NCBI GenBank assembly: GCA_964503955.1
Contig: CAZDCG010000001.1
Coordinates: 316,210-380,209, forward strand
Reading direction: 5' to 3'
From: an uncultured Gammaproteobacteria bacterium
Lineage (GTDB): Bacteria; Patescibacteriota; Patescibacteriia; VMEV01; CAYQCH01
Length of the DNA stretch: 64,000 nt
This document shows, piece by piece, positions 25,710-51,285 of the stretch. How positions within the stretch are numbered: position 1 is the first letter of the stretch; each line of letters begins with the position of its first letter. Position numbers and translations under genes: made by a program. The notes beneath the pieces are model-generated. The model saw nothing but the letters and a program-made list of their open reading frames with translations, ran no database searches and was not told the origin of the DNA.

Positions 25710-26855
25710 ATGGCTTCAGACGATCTCCTCTCCCGCTTTGACGCTTTGCTCGCGCCCTATGCCGTGCACAATGCAGGCGACCATCACCGCGCGTACAAAG
25801 AAGACGCACATCCCGACAAACTGCCGTTCGCGCGCGACCGGGATCGTATCGTGCATTCCAAGGCATTTCGCAGACTCAAACATAAAACCCAGGTAATCGT
25901 CAGCCCAAAAGACGATCATATCCGCGACCGCTTAACTCATAGCCTTGAAGGGGCCCAGATCGCGCGCAGCCTTTGCCGTTCCCTGCGGCTCAACGAAGAT
26001 CTAGCGGAAGCGGCCATCCTTGCCCATGATCTTGGCCATCCCCCGTTCGGCCATGAAGGCGAATACGCGCTGCATGAAATGCTTGAGCCGCTCGGATTTG
26101 CTTTTGATCATAATGCTCATGGCGAGCGCATCGTTACCTTGCTTGAGAAACAATATCCGGATTTTCCCGGATTGAACCTGACGCGTGAAACGCTGGCGGC
26201 TATTCGCAAACATCACGTACCGTGGGAAGATCCAAAAGCCACGCTGCCGCACCAGGCAAGCATTGAAGCGCAAATCGTCAATCTCGCGGATGAAATCGCC
26301 TACTACTCGCATGATATCGACGACGGGCTGCGCGCGCATTTGCTGAGAATCGAAGACCTGCTTGAATTGCAGATCGGCCGGGCCGTGCACAAAGTGATTG
26401 AAAAGCGCTATCCAAACCTTACGACCCATGACCGGCTCTATCGGCCGCAATTCGTCCGTTTCGTGATCCACCTGCTGATTGCTGACATTGTCAAAACAAC
26501 GGAACGGAATGTGCGCGACAAACAAATCTCTTCTCTGGCTGATGTCTACGCGCTTGATCATCCGGTCGCATCCTACAGCAAGCAGATGGATGACATGACC
26601 CAGGAACTGAGAAACTACCTGTATAAAACGTTCTATAGCTCTGAACCCGTTCGACGTTTCACGCAAGAAGGCCGCGAGCTTTTGCAGGAATTGTTTACGC
26701 AGCTCTATCAACGCCCGGAACATCTTCCCCAGCATATCCGCGAGCAGATCGACACCCTTGAACCGCGAGCCATTGTGGTCAAAGACTATATCGCGGGCAT
26801 GACCGACCATTTTGCCAAGGAGATGGTGTATAAGTTGAGAGGAAGCTTGGTATGA
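25710..26855 (+). CDS. dgt: dGTPase-like HD-domain triphosphohydrolase
   Basis: HSLEGAQIARSL...HDLGHPPFGHEGE HD motif of the dGTP triphosphohydrolase family. Confidence 0.85.
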   Translation: MASDDLLSRFDALLAPYAVHNAGDHHRAYKEDAHPDKLPFARDRDRIVHSKAFRRLKHKTQVIVSPKDDHIRDRLTHSLEGAQIARSLCRSLRLNEDLAEAAILAHDLGHPPFGHEGEYALHEMLEPLGFAFDHNAHGERIVTLLEKQYPDFPGLNLTRETLAAIRKHHVPWEDPKATLPHQASIEAQIVNLADEIAYYSHDIDDGLRAHLLRIEDLLELQIGRAVHKVIEKRYPNLTTHDRLYRPQFVRFVIHLLIADIVKTTERNVRDKQISSLADVYALDHPVASYSKQMDDMTQELRNYLYKTFYSSEPVRRFTQEGRELLQELFTQLYQRPEHLPQHIREQIDTLEPRAIVVKDYIAGMTDHFAKEMVYKLRGSLV

Positions 26856-27280
26856 CGGGTACAAATCACCAATCGGATACAAATTTACAAATATCCGGCG
26901 GGAAAGTCATTCACAAAGAACTAAGTTATACGATCGTAGGAATCCTGTTTGATGTTTACAATGAGCTTGGATATGGGCATAAAGAGAAGTATTATGAAAA
27001 CGCAATTGCCGTTGCTTTTGATACGAGGGGGATTAGTTATGAAAGACAAAAAAGAACGCCACTTTTCTTTCAAAATGCAAAAATAGGTGATTATTATTTA
27101 GATTTTCTCGTAGAAGAGAAAATTGTTTTAGAATTAAAGCGGGGAAATCGTTTCCCAAAATCACACATTGATCAAGTTATGGGTTATCTGAAACAGACGG
27201 GACTTCAACTGGCCATTCTCGCGACATTTTCTGTTGACGGTGTTAAGTTTCTAAGAGTTCTAAATGGAGTTAAAGAGTAG
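26852..27280 (+). CDS. GxxExxY family protein (PD-(D/E)XK-like; rRNA-IVS-associated family)
   Basis: ...ELSYTIVGILFDVYNELGYGHKEKYYENA...YYLDFLVEEKIVLELK... matches the GxxExxY family; the gene is bounded by ~36-bp terminal inverted repeats. Confidence 0.8.
   Translation: MTGTNHQSDTNLQISGGKVIHKELSYTIVGILFDVYNELGYGHKEKYYENAIAVAFDTRGISYERQKRTPLFFQNAKIGDYYLDFLVEEKIVLELKRGNRFPKSHIDQVMGYLKQTGLQLAILATFSVDGVKFLRVLNGVKE
26858..26895 (+). repeat. Left terminal inverted repeat of the GxxExxY cassette (gggtacaaatcaccaatcggatacaaatttacaaat)
   Basis: Reverse complement of 27280-27315 with 3-4 mismatches; near-identical copy at 48427-48460. Confidence 0.8.
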
Positions 27281-27315
27281 ATTTGTAAATTTGTAATGTA
27301 TTTGTGATTTGTACC
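27280..27315 (+). repeat. Right terminal inverted repeat of the GxxExxY cassette (atttgtaaatttgtaatgtatttgtgatttgtaccc)
   Basis: See the left repeat at 26858-26895. Confidence 0.8.
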
Positions 27316-27329
27316 CTTAATCATCCGCT

Positions 27330-28010
27330 ATGAAAGGAAAATTGATCGTCATCGACGGTATAGACGGTTCAGGAAAAGGCACGCAATTTGAGCTGCTGCT
27401 TGAAAAGATGGACCAGCTTGATATCCCCGTACAAACAAAAGACTTTCCGCAATACGGCAAAAAATCCGCCGGCGCGGTGGAAGAATATCTGAATGGCAAA
27501 TACGGCGACGCAAAGGAAGTGGGACCGTATCGGGCTTCCGTTTTATTCGCGGTTGACCGCTACGACGCAAGCCACGAGATGAAAAAGTGGCTGGCAGATG
27601 GAAGCCATGTCATCTGCAACCGGTATGTCACAGCCAATATGGGGCATCAGGGCGGAAAGATCCGCGACAAAGAAGAACGGATGCGCTATTTTGAATGGCT
27701 CAAGGAATTAGAATTCGGAATCTTTGATATCCCAAAACCCGACTTGAACATTTTTTTGCATGTTCCTCCTGAAACAGCCATTGAGTTGATCGAACAAAAA
27801 GGTTTTCGCGAATATATCGGAGGCGAAGGGAAAGATTTGCATGAAGGTGATTTACAGCATCTCAAAGAAACCGAGGAAGTATTTCTCCAGCTCGCTGATA
27901 TCATGCCAAATGCGCATATTATCTACTGCGCGCCGGAAGGCAAACTCCTCTCCCGCGAAGAGATTCATGAGAAGATTTGGGAAGTGGTGAGGAGGGAAAT
28001 TAACGTATAG
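27330..28010 (+). CDS. tmk: thymidylate (dTMP) kinase family protein
   Basis: P-loop VIDGIDGSGKGTQ, FAVDRY (DRY/H motif) and lid-region features of Tmk. Confidence 0.75.
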   Translation: MKGKLIVIDGIDGSGKGTQFELLLEKMDQLDIPVQTKDFPQYGKKSAGAVEEYLNGKYGDAKEVGPYRASVLFAVDRYDASHEMKKWLADGSHVICNRYVTANMGHQGGKIRDKEERMRYFEWLKELEFGIFDIPKPDLNIFLHVPPETAIELIEQKGFREYIGGEGKDLHEGDLQHLKETEEVFLQLADIMPNAHIIYCAPEGKLLSREEIHEKIWEVVRREINV

Positions 28011-31672: not shown

Positions 31673-32164
31673 ATGTCACAAACCGTTGCCGATGCCATGA
31701 ACGAGCGCGTCCACGGCAATACCATCCAGGATAAAATCGACGAAGATTACAAAGCGGCCTTCAAAGCCAAGGACGAACCGAGATTCAAGGCGCTACGCCC
31801 CGTGCTTGCCAAGCTGAAACAGGAAACCATTGACCGCCGCCATGAATTATCCGATGAAGAAATCCAGCAGGTATTGCGCACGGAAATCAAAAGCCGCAAA
31901 GACGCGACTGAACAGTTTAAACAAGGCGGCCGCGAAGATCTCGTTGAGCAGGCGGCCTATGAAATTTCCTTGATTGAAAGCTATCTGCCGGCCCAGATGC
32001 CAGACGAACATCTTGAAGCGATTGTCCGCGAAACCCTGGCTGCGATTGGCGCCTCCTCTCCTGCCGATATGGGCAAAGCCATGGGAGCTGTCATGGCCAA
32101 AGTGAAAGGCCAGGCTGATGGAGGAAGAGTAAAGGCTATGGTGGAGAAAGTGCTTAATGGATAA
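31673..32164 (+). CDS. yqeY: GatB/YqeY domain protein
   Basis: ...RFKALRPVLAKLKQETIDRRHELSDEEIQQVLRTEIKSRKDA...GKAMGAVMAKVKGQADG typical of YqeY; start at MSQTVAD. Confidence 0.8.
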   Translation: MSQTVADAMNERVHGNTIQDKIDEDYKAAFKAKDEPRFKALRPVLAKLKQETIDRRHELSDEEIQQVLRTEIKSRKDATEQFKQGGREDLVEQAAYEISLIESYLPAQMPDEHLEAIVRETLAAIGASSPADMGKAMGAVMAKVKGQADGGRVKAMVEKVLNG

Positions 32165-32165
32165 A

Positions 32166-32203
32166 GCTAAAAAGCTGAAAAACTCAAAAGCTTAAAAAGG
32201 CGC
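32166..32203 (+). repeat. Left inverted repeat flanking the four-helix-bundle gene (aaagctaaaaagctgaaaaactcaaaagcttaaaaagg)
   Basis: Reverse complement of 32655-32705 (gtctttatttttttagtttttcagctttttagcttttcagttttttg) matches with a few mismatches. Confidence 0.65.
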
Positions 32204-32276
32204 GGATGGTCCGGGCCTTTTTTGTGAATACGTGCTATAATTAATGCAAATTTAATTCTCTCTGCCCACACCTTTA

Positions 32277-32654
32277 ATGAATCATTTTATGAGTGGCGGA
32301 GCCTATAAGCAATTAGAAGACCGGACGACCATGTTTGCGATACAGGTTATCCGGTTTTGTCGTTCTGTAGGAGAAAAGCACTTATCAACAAGCATTGTTA
32401 ATCAAATAATACGCTCCGCGAGCTCTGTAGGGGCCAATTACAGAGAAGCAAACGAAGCCAAATCTCACAAAGAAAAGCTATACTTTCTTTATATCGTCAA
32501 AAGAGAGCTGAAAGAAACACAGTATTGGCTAGACGTGCTTGAGGAATTCGAAAATCCAACCATCGATTCTCAACGTAAAAACTTGCGAAAAGAGGTTACA
32601 GAATTACTAAATATTTTTATGAGTATCATTTTTTCCTTCCAAAAGAAAAAGTAA
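32277..32654 (+). CDS. four-helix-bundle protein (23S rRNA intervening-sequence protein family)
   Basis: ...IRSASSVGANYREANEAKSHKEKLYFLYIVKRELKETQYWLDVL... is the characteristic family signature. Confidence 0.8.
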   Translation: MNHFMSGGAYKQLEDRTTMFAIQVIRFCRSVGEKHLSTSIVNQIIRSASSVGANYREANEAKSHKEKLYFLYIVKRELKETQYWLDVLEEFENPTIDSQRKNLRKEVTELLNIFMSIIFSFQKKK

Positions 32655-32705
32655 GTCTTTATTTTTTTAGTTTTTCAGCTTTTTAGCTTTTCAGTTTTTT
32701 GAACT
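32655..32705 (+). repeat. Right inverted repeat flanking the four-helix-bundle gene
   Basis: See 32166-32203. Confidence 0.65.
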
Positions 32706-33694
32706 AATACCCCCACCAAAGTCTTTGCCTCCTCCACATCCCGCACCCACTTCACATCTCCATGCTTGCGCCACCAGGTCAATTGGCGCTTGGCATAGTT
32801 GCGCGTGACTTTTTTTGATTCTTCAATAGCCTGATCAAGCGTCCAGTTGCCTTGCAGATAGAATCCGATTTGCTGGTATGCATGCCCGGTCATGGCGACC
32901 ATATCGTACCCGTATTTCTCTCCGACGGCACGGACTTCTTCAACCAAACCGGCTTCAATCATTTTGTCGACACGGCCATTGATCCTCTCATAAACTTCTT
33001 CGCGGTCAACAACAGGCGCTAGATACAGCGCGTCAAATTTTGCCTCCAGCTTGCTTGGCGACTTAATCATTCTCCCCTGCTCAGCGATTTCAATCGCGCG
33101 GATAACACGTCGCCTATTCTGCACATCCACACGCCTTGACGCTGAGCGATCAACCGCCTCAAGACGCGCGATCAATTCAATATCAGACAGATCTTCAAGC
33201 TCTCTGCGCAGATTCGGATTGGGTTTTGCGTCAGGAATCTGCCAGTTTTCTAAAATCGCGGATGTATAAAGCGATGTCCCGCCGACAAGAATCGGCAATT
33301 TTCCGCGCGCAATAATTTCATTGATGATGCCAAAAGCCAGCAATTGAAAATGAGAAAGTGTCAGCAGTTGATCAGGGCGCACAACGCCGATCATATAGTG
33401 GGTGATTCCTTGCACGTCATAGACATTGATCAGTGCATCCTCAAGGCTGATTGGCGAATTTGTTTCTTCAAGTTTCTGTTCAATATCAAAAAAAGCTTTG
33501 TCTTTTGTGATCTCACGTGTGTCCGTCTGATGCCGCCCAGGTTCCTTATTGGTGCCAATATCCATTTCCTTATAAATCTGGCGTGAATCAACCGAAATAA
33601 TCTCTCCATCAAATTCCTTGGCCAAGGCCAAAGCCAGGTCAGATTTTCCTGACGCGGTCGTCCCGACAACAGCAATGACTTTCGGTTTATGCAT
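32675..33694 (-). CDS. miaA: tRNA dimethylallyltransferase
   Basis: P-loop VIAVVGTTASGKSDLA and ISVDSRQIYKEMDIGT motifs of MiaA. Confidence 0.9.
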   Translation of the reverse strand: MHKPKVIAVVGTTASGKSDLALALAKEFDGEIISVDSRQIYKEMDIGTNKEPGRHQTDTREITKDKAFFDIEQKLEETNSPISLEDALINVYDVQGITHYMIGVVRPDQLLTLSHFQLLAFGIINEIIARGKLPILVGGTSLYTSAILENWQIPDAKPNPNLRRELEDLSDIELIARLEAVDRSASRRVDVQNRRRVIRAIEIAEQGRMIKSPSKLEAKFDALYLAPVVDREEVYERINGRVDKMIEAGLVEEVRAVGEKYGYDMVAMTGHAYQQIGFYLQGNWTLDQAIEESKKVTRNYAKRQLTWWRKHGDVKWVRDVEEAKTLVGVLVQKTEKLKS

Positions 33695-48295: not shown

Positions 48296-48426
48296 ATGTA
48301 TTTGTTTTTGTCTAAAGGTAGTATATCAATGTTGCTTATTTCTGTCAGGGGTACAGATCACGAATGCATTACAAATAGACAAAGCCTGTCAAAGCTGACG
48401 ACAAACCGTTTGTGAGATGCAGCCCA

Positions 48427-48460
48427 TTTGTAAATTTGTATCCGATTTGTGATCTGCCCC
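48427..48460 (+). repeat. Solo copy of the GxxExxY-cassette inverted repeat (atttgtaaatttgtatccgatttgtgatctgccc)
   Basis: Near-identical to the rc of 26858-26895 and to 27280-27315; lies just downstream of pheT. Confidence 0.7.
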
Positions 48461-48475
48461 CTCCATCATGCTCGT

Positions 48476-50883: not shown

Positions 50884-51278
50884 TTCACTACAAATTACAA
50901 ATTTTACGACGAATCTACAAATCGAGATTCAATACACGCATAAACTTACACCGGAACTAGTGAAGTTTGCCAGAATCGCCAATTGTGTTTTTGTCGTTTT
51001 TAAATAATCCTTGACCTGTTGGATATTTTTTCGAGAAAAATGATTACCTTGCTTTAACTCAAGGATAATTTTTCCTTCGACCAAAAAATCAAGATAGAAT
51101 GTCCCTATTTTCTTTTCTTTAAAGAACAAACGAGCGTGTAACTGACGTTCATATTCCATTCCCTTTTCATCAAGTTATAGACTTCAAAGAGAATTTCTAC
51201 AATCTGATAACTCAATTCACTGTAAATTACCTTCTGTTCTGACACTTGTAGATTTGAAGCCAATTTGTAATTCGTAGT
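50884..51278. mobile_element. Degenerate GxxExxY cassette (inverted-repeat bounded) inserted between pheS and pheT
   Basis: Inverted repeats cactacaaattacaaatt...aatctacaaatc (50884-50925) and cttgtagatttg...caatttgtaattcgtagtgg (51245-51278) flank a truncated GxxExxY ORF. Confidence 0.65.
50929..51159 (-). pseudogene. truncated GxxExxY-family gene (C-terminal half only)
   Basis: MEYERQ...FYLDFLVEGKIILELKQGNHF...QVKDYLKTTKTQLAILANF aligns to the C-terminal half of 26852..27280; the N-terminal GxxExxY region is missing. Confidence 0.6.
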
Positions 51279-51285
51279 GGAGAAA

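What the first reader, a model, noticed from the sequence alone, without database searches (positions are those of the whole stretch)
26852..27315. GxxExxY gene packaged as a cassette bounded by 36-bp terminal inverted repeats
The intact GxxExxY-family gene is bounded by near-perfect inverted repeats: gggtacaaatcaccaatcggatacaaatttacaaat (26858-26895) and its reverse complement atttgtaaatttgtaatgtatttgtgatttgtaccc (27280-27315). GxxExxY and four-helix-bundle proteins are the two families classically encoded inside 23S rRNA intervening sequences (IVS). In an IVS the flanking inverted repeats form the RNase III-processed stem. Here the same gene-between-long-stem architecture lies in a protein-coding intergenic slot between dgt and tmk. 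The left repeat overlaps the first codons of the annotated ORF. This suggests IVS-like elements behave as mobile, stem-bounded cassettes outside rRNA, or that this lineage's IVSs derive from such cassettes. I am not aware of this being described.
Basis: partly seen in the sequence, partly recalled or inferred. Interest (0 to 1): 0.72.

Follow-up and report, generated by a model that had tools for sequence, protein, structure and literature searches.

The report
Hairpin-bounded nuclease gene cassette between operon genes
The small GxxExxY nuclease gene between dgt and tmk is enclosed by a real 36-base inverted repeat, and the same packaging (four short repeat units per arm, slotted in sense between two co-transcribed host genes) surrounds this gene family in many bacterial phyla and resembles the ORF-carrying intervening sequences of 23S rRNA.

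Summary
Arms 26857-26892 and 27281-27316 are 31/36 complementary and enclose a TIGR04256/PF13366 gene.

It is not a local oddity.
- The window holds three more such elements: an ORF-less hairpin (48348-48461), a degraded copy (50885-51279) and a four-helix-bundle cassette (32163-32694).
- In 80 GxxExxY loci from other genomes, 65 have a significant bracketing inverted repeat. None lies in rRNA.
- Each arm is typically four YACRRAT-like units, spaced 7-8/10-11/8 nt. This is the heptamer class (GACAGAT) reported in the RNase III-processed Coxiella 23S IVS.
- Cassettes sit in sense orientation. The upstream host stop codon is a median 2 nt from the 5' arm.
- Relatives have an empty dgt-tmk junction, or an ORF-less hairpin there.
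- In Flavobacterium orthologues, both protein (dN/dS 0.02-0.07) and arms are under purifying selection.

Best reading: a promoter-less, IVS-type hairpin cassette that lives in operon junctions. RNase III processing, and action of the nuclease on the unit arrays, are inferred, not shown. I found no published description. The premise that GxxExxY genes are classic rRNA-IVS cargo was not borne out.

The parts
26857..26892 (+). 5' arm of cassette 1. It has four units: TACAAAT 26860-66, CACCAAT 26867-73, TACAAAT 26878-84 and TACAAAT 26886-92. Unit spacing is 7/11/8, with a central unpaired CGGA at 26874-77.
26852..27280 (+). GxxExxY / PD-(D/E)XK nuclease ORF, 142 aa. Its ATG overlaps the dgt stop codon (ATGA). 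Residues 1-20 are arm-encoded and predicted to be disordered. The catalytic E45, D84, E94 and K96 are intact.
26893..26895 (+). The canonical start-codon position, directly after the last 5' unit. It reads ATA here. The sister element at 48348-48461 keeps ATG at the equivalent position, and most homologues start 1-20 nt after the arm.
27281..27316 (+). 3' arm of cassette 1, the reverse complement of four units. It begins immediately after the TAG stop codon and ends 13 nt before the tmk ATG.
25710..26855 (+). Upstream host gene, a dGTPase-like HD hydrolase. Its C-terminus and stop position match those of relatives that lack the cassette.
27330..28010 (+). Downstream host gene, thymidylate kinase.
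48348..48461 (-). ORF-less derivative of the same arm subfamily, oriented on the minus strand. The 5' arm is 48426-48461 and the 3' arm 48348-48384. It keeps the same asymmetric internal loop and a 41-nt interior that retains the canonical ATG. It lies 8 nt after the pheT stop. RNA fold z = -5.2.
50885..51279 (-). Degraded GxxExxY cassette between pheS and pheT. The arms are 51244-51279 and 50885-50921. The gene is frameshifted or deleted and is 58% identical to cassette 1 at the protein level.
32163..32694 (+). Analogous cassette carrying a four-helix-bundle (TIGR02436, 23S-IVS-protein family) gene at 32277-32654. The arms are made of AAAAGCT-type units. The left arm starts in the stop codon of the YqeY-like gene. 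The right arm encodes the last codons of miaA.

Best explanation
Cassette 1 is one copy of a very widespread, apparently undescribed class of promoter-less 'hairpin cassettes'. These are architecturally the same kind of element as the ORF-carrying intervening sequences of rRNA.

The unit of inheritance is [arm of ~4 YACRRAT-like units] - small ORF filling the loop - [inverted arm], about 490 nt in all. It is inserted in sense orientation exactly between the stop codon of one host gene and the start of the next, so the host operon transcribes it.

In the transcript the two arms can pair into a ~36-bp interrupted stem with the ORF in the loop. By analogy with the Coxiella 23S IVS, which has the same heptamer arms and is cut by RNase III, this stem is most likely an RNase III substrate. 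Cleavage would excise or uncouple the cassette RNA from the host message.

The cargo is a PD-(D/E)XK nuclease with intact catalytic residues. The same short unit is conserved eight times per element across phyla. That argues that a sequence-specific factor reads the arms and serves spread or retention of the element. The encoded nuclease is the most economical candidate.

Shown: the architecture, its family-wide conservation, sense and junction placement, insertion polymorphism, a decay series, and purifying selection on protein and arms.

Inferred: RNA-level pairing in vivo, RNase III cleavage, and nuclease-arm recognition.
For: - Inverted repeat and family assignment.
- Recurrence: four elements in the window. 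65/80 loci from CPR, Bacteroidota, Flavobacterium, Planctomycetota, Sulfuricella, Acidobacteriota, Chloroflexota and one archaeal bin have a significant bracketing inverted repeat. It is also seen in Bacteroides finegoldii.
- Arm syntax: modal 4+4 units, spacing 7-8/10-11/8. Unit cores are 96% matched between arms, spacers 68-80%, against a null of 40%.
- IVS link: the Coxiella IVS 5' arm has tandem GACAGAT heptamers in a 28-bp stem cut by RNase III (PMC4990558).
- Placement: 59/65 upstream and 57/61 downstream neighbours are on the same strand. The median gap from the upstream stop codon to the 5' arm is 2 nt.
- Expression signals: the start codon lies 1-20 nt after the arm in most of the 52 cassettes whose start is in the loop, and 49 of those 52 have no Shine-Dalgarno motif. 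The stop codon abuts the 3' arm.
- Insertion polymorphism: the dgt-tmk junction is empty, or holds an ORF-less hairpin, in relatives.
- Composition: all 67 cassettes are AT-richer than their flanks. GC3 is 0.30 against 0.5-0.6 here.
- Protein: E45/D84/E94/K96 are invariant. The AF2 model has pLDDT 88, with best fold matches Cas4, lambda exonuclease and Hjc.
- Selection: orthologous Flavobacterium cassettes have dN/dS 0.02-0.07. Their arms are 90-95% identical where synonymous sites differ by 20-33%.
Against: - No transcript data exist for these elements.
- Mismatches between arms show no excess of sense-strand G:U over A:C (89 vs 95). Inter-unit positions are often non-complementary. Selection therefore seems to act on the unit sequence more than on helix continuity, which RNase III recognition alone does not explain.
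- In the window copy, the start codon and Shine-Dalgarno motif lie outside the stem. Cleavage there would decapitate the ORF.
- Four-helix-bundle cassettes share the architecture but use different units and encode no nuclease. Movement may therefore not depend on the cargo.
- No target-site duplication was seen.
- Copies within the window are old: 58% protein identity and ~85% arm identity.
- Cassettes are rare on plasmids (4 of 72,556 records).
- Long syntenic retention under purifying selection could mean a host function rather than selfishness.
Confidence: 0.5

Rival explanations
1. DNA-level transposon or MITE system. The arms are terminal inverted repeats with multiple binding sites, as in Tn7 or Mu ends. 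The GxxExxY nuclease is the element's transposase or homing nuclease. ORF-less hairpins are non-autonomous derivatives moved in trans, as in the REPIN-RAYT relationship. Sense orientation merely reflects selection for expression.
For: - The unit sequence, not only the pairing, is conserved 4x per arm across phyla.
- There is no sense-strand G:U bias.
- ORF-less hairpins and solo arms occupy many junctions.
- The same ~170-nt array occurs at two junctions 3.2 kb apart in L115.
- There is presence/absence polymorphism.
- The nuclease residues are invariant.
Against: - No target-site duplication at any inspected boundary.
- No strand-transfer enzyme is present. A ~125-aa PD-(D/E)XK protein alone is not known to transpose DNA.
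- No near-identical copies occur within the window.
- Four-helix-bundle cassettes have the same build without a nuclease.
- 91-93% sense orientation and nucleotide-precise abutment to stop and start codons are unusual for transposons.
- Orthologues are stable across four Flavobacterium species.
Confidence: 0.25
2. Host-serving operon module. The hairpin, with or without its nuclease, is retained because it processes, stabilises or translationally couples polycistronic mRNAs at gene junctions. Its spread is mostly vertical, with occasional transfer.
For: - The same junction (upstream of bioD) is occupied in four Flavobacterium species, with dN/dS 0.02-0.07 and arms evolving more slowly than synonymous sites.
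- Orthologous junctions are shared among divergent CPR genomes.
- Arms abut the upstream stop (median 2 nt) and the downstream start (median 7 nt). Starts lack a Shine-Dalgarno motif, which fits termination-reinitiation coupling.
Against: - Close relatives do well with an empty dgt-tmk junction.
- Pseudogenised and ORF-less copies are common, including two of three in this window.
- Universal AT-richness relative to the host and patchy distribution are hallmarks of selfish DNA.
- No junction type is preferred: dgt-tmk, pheS-pheT, pil genes, radA and bio are all used.
Confidence: 0.2
3. Nothing special: a chance palindrome or an ordinary terminator or attenuator hairpin around an ordinary small gene.
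For: The single window inverted repeat on its own is only modestly significant (self-BLAST E = 5e-4). It has five mismatches.
Against: - The same arm subfamily recurs at 48348-48461 with the same asymmetric internal loop.
- 65/80 independent loci show the architecture, against no significant case among 25 viral controls.
- The unit syntax is conserved.
- No T-run follows the stem.
Confidence: 0.02

Closest known systems
ORF-carrying intervening sequences (IVS) of 23S rRNA (Coxiella burnetii, Leptospira; S23p/four-helix-bundle ORF)
   Same: - Size is about 430-490 nt.
[quoted passage not shown]
- The 5' arm is made of tandem heptamers (GACAGAT in Coxiella; TACAAAT here).
- There is no own promoter, so it is transcribed as part of the host transcript.
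- A four-helix-bundle cassette of the same build lies in this window.
   Different: - It lies between protein-coding genes, not in an rRNA helix. No rRNA is present in the window or in 80 related loci.
- The cargo is a PD-(D/E)XK nuclease, not S23p.
- RNase III excision is shown for Coxiella (PMC4990558) but untested here.
REPIN-RAYT systems (REP doublets and the REP-associated tyrosine transposase flanked by inverted REPs)
   Same: - A single small gene is bracketed by inverted copies of a repeat.
- That repeat also occurs as many ORF-less hairpins in intergenic regions.
- Long-term vertical persistence with purifying selection is reported for RAYTs (my knowledge).
- A RAYT-like gene (weak hit to the RAYT model, below its cut-off) flanked by REP-like palindromes was seen by chance in L023.
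   Different: - The enzyme is a PD-(D/E)XK fold, not a Y1/HUH transposase.
- The arms are arrays of four 7-10-nt units, not GTAG-headed REP palindromes.
- There are many diverged gene copies per genome, each with its own arms.
Correia/NEMIS-type MITEs of Neisseria (my knowledge)
   Same: - Inverted-repeat elements inserted in intergenic regions.
- They are co-transcribed with neighbouring genes, and their hairpins are RNase III substrates.
   Different: - Correia elements are ORF-less, carry a TA target duplication, and occur as hundreds of near-identical copies.
- Here no duplication was seen, the copies are diverged, and the full form carries a gene.
Free-standing or intron-borne PD-(D/E)XK homing endonucleases (e.g. 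I-Ssp6803I, I-Bth0305I)
   Same: - A small PD-(D/E)XK nuclease encoded inside a selfish insertion.
- The I-Bth0305I catalytic domain is among the weaker fold matches (E = 0.07).
   Different: - There is no intron or intein. Rfam finds nothing.
- Insertion sites are diverse junctions rather than one conserved target.

Membership tests
GxxExxY protein family (TIGR04256 / Pfam PF13366 PDDEXK_3) | Profile score above the curated cut-off | tested here: met
   TIGR04256 scores 101.4 bits (cut-off 35). PF13366 scores 104.1 bits (cut-off 22)..
GxxExxY protein family (TIGR04256 / Pfam PF13366 PDDEXK_3) | GxxExxY motif and the PD-(D/E)XK catalytic constellation (E...D...ExK) | tested here: met
   G42-E45-Y48, D84, E94 and K96 are invariant in 31 sequences.
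GxxExxY protein family (TIGR04256 / Pfam PF13366 PDDEXK_3) | Restriction-endonuclease-like alpha/beta fold | tested here: met
   The AF2 model has pLDDT 87.9. Foldseek best hits are Cas4 SSO0001, lambda exonuclease and the Hjc resolvase. No solved homologue is detectable by sequence.
rRNA intervening sequence (IVS) | Inserted in a helix of a 23S or 16S rRNA gene | tested here: not met
   It lies between dgt and tmk. Rfam finds only one tRNA in the window. No rRNA similarity is found in the window or in 80 homologous loci.
rRNA intervening sequence (IVS) | Terminal inverted repeats that form a long stem enclosing the rest of the element | tested here: met
   The arms are 31/36 complementary, and the MFE fold pairs them.
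rRNA intervening sequence (IVS) | Excision from the precursor by RNase III without religation | not testable with these tools
   This needs RNA-end mapping. It is shown only for Coxiella and others in the literature.
rRNA intervening sequence (IVS) | Tandem heptamer units in the 5' arm upstream of the ORF (the Coxiella type) | tested here: met
   TACAAAT/CACCAAT units here, against GACAGAT x3 in Coxiella (PMC4990558).
rRNA intervening sequence (IVS) | ORF, when present, of the S23p/four-helix-bundle family | tested here: not met
   The cargo is GxxExxY. The neighbouring cassette at 32163-32694 does carry TIGR02436.
TIR transposon / MITE | Terminal inverted repeats | tested here: met
TIR transposon / MITE | Target-site duplication flanking the element | tested here: not met
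   No direct repeat at the boundaries of elements 1-3 or of the L087 hairpin. Only a few boundaries were inspected by eye.
TIR transposon / MITE | Recognised transposase, or many near-identical copies | tested here: not met
   The only ORF is a 125-142-aa PD-(D/E)XK protein. Window copies share 58% protein identity and ~85% arm identity.
REPIN-RAYT (REPtron) | Y1/HUH REP-associated tyrosine transposase as the enclosed gene | tested here: not met
   The cassette gene's only NCBIfam match is TIGR04256, with no RAYT model among its hits. By contrast, the L023 control gene gives a weak, sub-threshold hit to the RAYT model NF047646 (35.5 bits, cut-off 80).
REPIN-RAYT (REPtron) | The same repeat also dispersed as ORF-less inverted doublets in intergenic regions | tested here: met
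   Window 48348-48461; L014, L019, L043, L076 and L087; metagenome hits.
Self-splicing intron with homing endonuclease | Group I or group II intron RNA structure around the ORF | tested here: not met
   No Rfam match even at E<=10 on 26700-27450.

The most novel reading that the evidence does not exclude
GxxExxY nucleases and their YACRRAT unit arrays form a previously unrecognised, pan-bacterial class of selfish element. In this reading the nuclease reads the eight-unit palindrome and drives copying of the cassette into operon junctions and, occasionally, rRNA helix tips. ORF-bearing rRNA IVSs would then be the rare rRNA-resident members of this much larger class. This would explain the long-unsolved origin of IVSs and give a function to a family with more than 18,000 cluster representatives at 50% identity.
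Probability: 0.3. Interest if true: 0.85.

Novelty: new variant of a known kind. Interest (0 to 1): 0.74.

Why it matters
- The GxxExxY family is large: 18,484 clusters at 50% identity at E<=1e-3. It has no assigned function and is almost absent from the searchable literature (3 papers mention it, none functionally).
- Almost every cellular member sampled sits in one conserved non-coding architecture, placed with nucleotide precision between co-transcribed genes. This turns an anonymous 'hypothetical nuclease' into a defined genetic element with testable parts: arms, units, nuclease and junction.
- It connects that element to rRNA intervening sequences, whose origin and mobility have been open since the early 1990s.
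- It gives cultured organisms (Flavobacterium spp., Bacteroides finegoldii) in which RNase III processing, nuclease specificity and effects on operon expression can be tested directly.
- It matters for annotation. The arms are open reading frames in some frames and produce spurious N-terminal extensions, as here. They may also account for the ~265-aa two-domain forms seen in the library, though I did not check those.

Tried and rejected
- **Rfam.** No family matched at gathering thresholds on the window or on 17 loci, nor at E<=10 on the element.
- **rRNA context.** BLAST of the E. coli rrn operon against all loci found only tRNA similarity. The idea that these genes usually sit in rRNA was dropped.
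- **Sense-strand G:U versus A:C mismatch test for RNA-level selection.** No bias, 89 vs 95. This neither proves nor excludes RNA pairing.
- **PDB by sequence.** Nothing significant.
- **PADLOC and PHROGs.** Only marginal Cas4b similarity (E = 7e-4) and no phage family. No evidence for a known defence system.
- **Viral contigs.** 25 distant homologues (27-34% identity) lack significant arms. They served as a negative control, not as a source of the element.
- **Plasmids.** Only 4 records.
- **Literature.** Searches for GxxExxY, PF13366, TIGR04256, IVS-like elements outside rRNA, and CPR palindromic repeats found no description. The Leptospira and early Coxiella IVS papers are not held.
- **Target-site duplications.** Looked for by eye at several boundaries and not found.
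- **dN/dS for some CPR orthologue pairs.** Saturated or mis-framed, so not used.
- **Low GC as evidence of recent transfer.** Rejected, because all 67 cassettes are AT-richer than their hosts.
Full report
**1. The observation**

The window sequence shows GGGTACAAATCACCAATCGGATACAAATTTACAAAT at 26857-26892. Its imperfect reverse complement lies at 27281-27316.
- Complementarity is 31/36 without gaps. Four of the five mismatches form one central internal loop.
- The enclosed ORF (26852-27280, 142 aa) scores 101 bits on TIGR04256 'GxxExxY protein' and 104 bits on PF13366 PDDEXK_3.
- The neighbours are a dGTPase-type HD hydrolase (25710-26855) and thymidylate kinase (27330-28010).
- As RNA, the 491-nt stretch folds with the arms paired, z = -2.5.
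- The cassette has 35% GC in a 52% GC window. Gene GC3 is 0.30 against 0.5-0.6 for host genes.

**2. It is not alone in the window**

Pattern searches and tblastn found two more elements of the same arm subfamily.
- At 48348-48461, on the minus strand 8 nt after the pheT stop, lies an ORF-less hairpin. It has the same asymmetric internal loop (5' arm ...AATCGGATACAAAT, 3' arm ...AATGCATTACAAAT). Its 41-nt interior still begins with ATG. RNA fold z = -5.2.
- At 50885-51279, between pheS and pheT, lies a frameshifted or deleted GxxExxY pseudogene with its own arms. It is 58% identical at the protein level.
- A self-BLAST for inverted repeats found one further cassette at 32163-32694. Its arms are AAAAGCT-type units around a TIGR02436 four-helix-bundle gene, the protein family of the 23S rRNA IVS ORFs.
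- The window therefore contains a decay series: intact, pseudogene, ORF-less. It also contains both cargo families.

**3. The architecture is family-wide**

Homologues of the protein are mostly from Patescibacteria/CPR. The source is a CPR-like genome.

A scan of one genome per species with a 31-sequence alignment returned 80 loci. These came from CPR, Bacteroidota (including five cultured Flavobacterium species), Planctomycetota, Sulfuricella, Acidobacteriota, Chloroflexota and one archaeal bin.
- In 65 of the 80 loci, a significant inverted repeat brackets the gene. Several of the remainder are contig-end cases or show visible units below threshold.
- None of 25 distant viral homologues has a significant one: all z <= 2.8, with one weak unit-like match. 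This controls for the method, which used the same scoring with wider search windows.
- Element length is uniform: median 488 nt, range 402-669.
- None of the 80 loci contains rRNA.

**4. Arm syntax**

The arms are not arbitrary palindromes.
- The modal arm has four direct copies of a short unit: TACGAAT, TACAAAT, CACGAAT, CACGGAT, CACAGAT, GCGGAT or CTAAT. The unit is CACAGAGGA in Bacteroides finegoldii.
- Start-to-start spacing is 7-8, 10-11, 8 in CPR and about 10/10/10 in other phyla.
- The window copy is a textbook 7/11/8 on both arms.
- Unit cores match between the two arms at 96%. Inter-unit nucleotides match at 68-80%, against a between-element null of 40%.
- Mismatches show no excess of sense-strand G:U over A:C, 89 vs 95.
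- The unit sequence itself is therefore under selection. Helix continuity is only partly maintained.

**5. Link to rRNA IVSs**

PMC4990558 reports the following for the Coxiella 23S IVS:
- It is 428-444 nt long and carries an S23p/four-helix-bundle ORF.
- It has a 28-bp terminal stem.
- Three tandem heptamers GACAGAT, plus a degenerate fourth, lie between the Shine-Dalgarno region and the start codon.
- RNase III cleaves within the stem, at the start of the first repeat.

This is the same unit class and the same layout as found here.

By contrast, I found no support for the premise that GxxExxY genes are typical IVS cargo. A survey of CPR rRNA insertions lists 23S_rRNA_IVP, GIY-YIG and LAGLIDADG domains, and the one supplementary file I could search does not mention PDDEXK.

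Four-helix-bundle cassettes in my loci (L030, L052, L063 and the window) share the tandem-unit build but use diverse units.

**6. Placement**

- In 59 of 65 cases the upstream neighbour is on the same strand. The median distance from its stop codon to the outer edge of the 5' arm is 2 nt, and the arm often supplies the stop.
- In 57 of 61 cases the downstream neighbour is on the same strand and starts a median 7 nt after the 3' arm. Downstream starts are less certain than upstream stops.
- In the 52 of 66 cassettes that have a start codon within the loop, it mostly lies 1-20 nt after the last 5' unit, and 49 of those 52 lack a Shine-Dalgarno motif. The stop codon abuts or enters the 3' arm.
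- The cassettes are thus promoter-less, maximally compact, and embedded in host operons in sense.
- In the window copy, the canonical start position reads ATA (26893-26895). The ORF has been captured by an upstream ATG that overlaps the dgt stop (ATGA) and has an AGGAAG Shine-Dalgarno motif. This is why the left arm is 'inside' the ORF.
- The arm-encoded residues 1-20 are predicted to be disordered.

**7. Insertion polymorphism and persistence**

Three relatives (63-66% Dgt identity) keep the synteny thyA-folA-...-dgt-tmk-...-gatB-yqeY.
- Their Dgt proteins end at the same position as in the window.
- L083 has 5 nt between dgt and tmk.
- L086 has 55 nt with no repeats.
- L087 has a 157-nt ORF-less hairpin of ACGAAT units.
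- The cassette is therefore an insertion, and this junction has been used more than once or has decayed differentially.

ORF-less hairpins and solo arms occupy many junctions in other genomes.

Cassettes can also be very stable. Four Flavobacterium species share one upstream of bioD.
- dN/dS is 0.02-0.07.
- The arms are 90-95% identical where synonymous sites differ by 20-33%.

All 67 cassettes are AT-richer than their flanks, by a median of 11 points. They are rare on plasmids.

**8. The protein**

- E45, D84, E94 and K96 are invariant.
- The AF2 model (pLDDT 88) is a PD-(D/E)XK fold. The nearest solved structures are Cas4, lambda exonuclease and Hjc-type resolvases.
- No solved structure is detectable by sequence.
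- There is no convincing defence-system or phage-family match.
- The family has 18,484 cluster representatives at 50% identity at E<=1e-3.

**9. Interpretation**

Shown:
- A conserved element made of two four-unit arms and a loop-filling small gene.
- Sense placement at operon junctions.
- Gain and loss between relatives.
- Decay products.
- Purifying selection on both protein and arms.

Inferred:
- The arms pair in the host transcript and are cut by RNase III, as in the Coxiella IVS.
- The nuclease recognises the unit arrays.

The main rivals are a DNA-level TIR/REPIN-like system and a host-serving junction module. The data do not separate these rivals from the RNA-level reading. The conserved unit sequence and the lack of G:U bias favour sequence-specific recognition. 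The orientation, junction precision and IVS homology favour an RNA-level life style. The two may well coexist.

**10. Novelty**

ORF-bearing, stem-bounded IVSs are known in rRNA, and REP/MITE hairpins are known in intergenic DNA. I could not find any of the following in the searchable literature:
- A PD-(D/E)XK (GxxExxY) cargo.
- The four-unit arm syntax.
- The stop-to-start junction placement.
- The breadth across phyla.

I rate it a new variant of a known kind. It has a realistic chance of being the general class from which rRNA IVSs derive.

Noticed in passing
window 32163-32694: A second kind of hairpin cassette. Its arms are AAAAGCT-type units around a TIGR02436 four-helix-bundle gene (32277-32654). 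It contains an internal terminator-like hairpin (32196-32225) and a TTGTGA...TATAAT promoter-like site. The left arm starts in the stop codon of the YqeY-like gene. The right arm encodes the last ~5 codons of miaA (32675-33694, minus strand).
   Followed up: partly
window 26893-26895 vs 48426-48428 (minus strand): The canonical start codon directly after the last 5' unit is ATA in the intact copy but ATG in the ORF-less copy. The intact gene now relies on an upstream ATG that overlaps the dgt stop codon.
   Followed up: partly
L016 5470-5812: A 106-aa ORF that I read as GIY-YIG-like from its sequence (no NCBIfam match) is bracketed by a perfect 23-bp inverted repeat, GTCATTCTGGCTTGGCCAGAATC. 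This would be a third small-nuclease family in a palindromic cassette, with unrelated arms.
   Followed up: no
L023 4819-5608: A gene with a weak, sub-threshold hit to the REP-associated tyrosine transposase (RAYT) model is flanked by REP-like palindromes (CCGAAGTCCGACTCCGAAGTCGGACTTCGG). It lies in the same CPR contig as GxxExxY cassettes and is a useful comparator.
   Followed up: partly
L050 3398-3889: A second, divergent GxxExxY gene in the same genome as a TACGAAA-type cassette. Its arms are four ACGCTGA(T) units. This could serve as a natural test of protein-unit co-variation.
   Followed up: partly
L115 9853-10010 and 13100-13260: The same ~170-nt composite array of arm units (ACAAAT/ATTCGTA hairpins, no ORF) occurs nearly identically at two gene junctions 3.2 kb apart on one metagenomic contig.
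   Followed up: no
L014 950-1033 and 2786-2883; L087 4650-4770: Compact ORF-less hairpins (arm, 3-4-nt loop, arm) fill successive junctions of a pilB-pilT operon. One also fills the dgt-tmk junction of a relative of the window genome.
   Followed up: partly
protein library, e.g. P0248, P0256, P0261: Many 250-275-aa proteins contain two GxxExxY domains. They could be real fusions, or read-through of adjacent cassettes whose arms are open in frame.
   Followed up: no
L053 6685-6924 (Prevotella MAG): An ORF-less inverted array of GGAGTTA-type heptamers, a different unit with the same build.
   Followed up: no
all 67 cassettes: Every cassette is AT-richer than its 5 kb of flanks (median -11 GC points). 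Cassette GC still tracks host GC, which suggests long residence with a persistent AT bias.
   Followed up: yes
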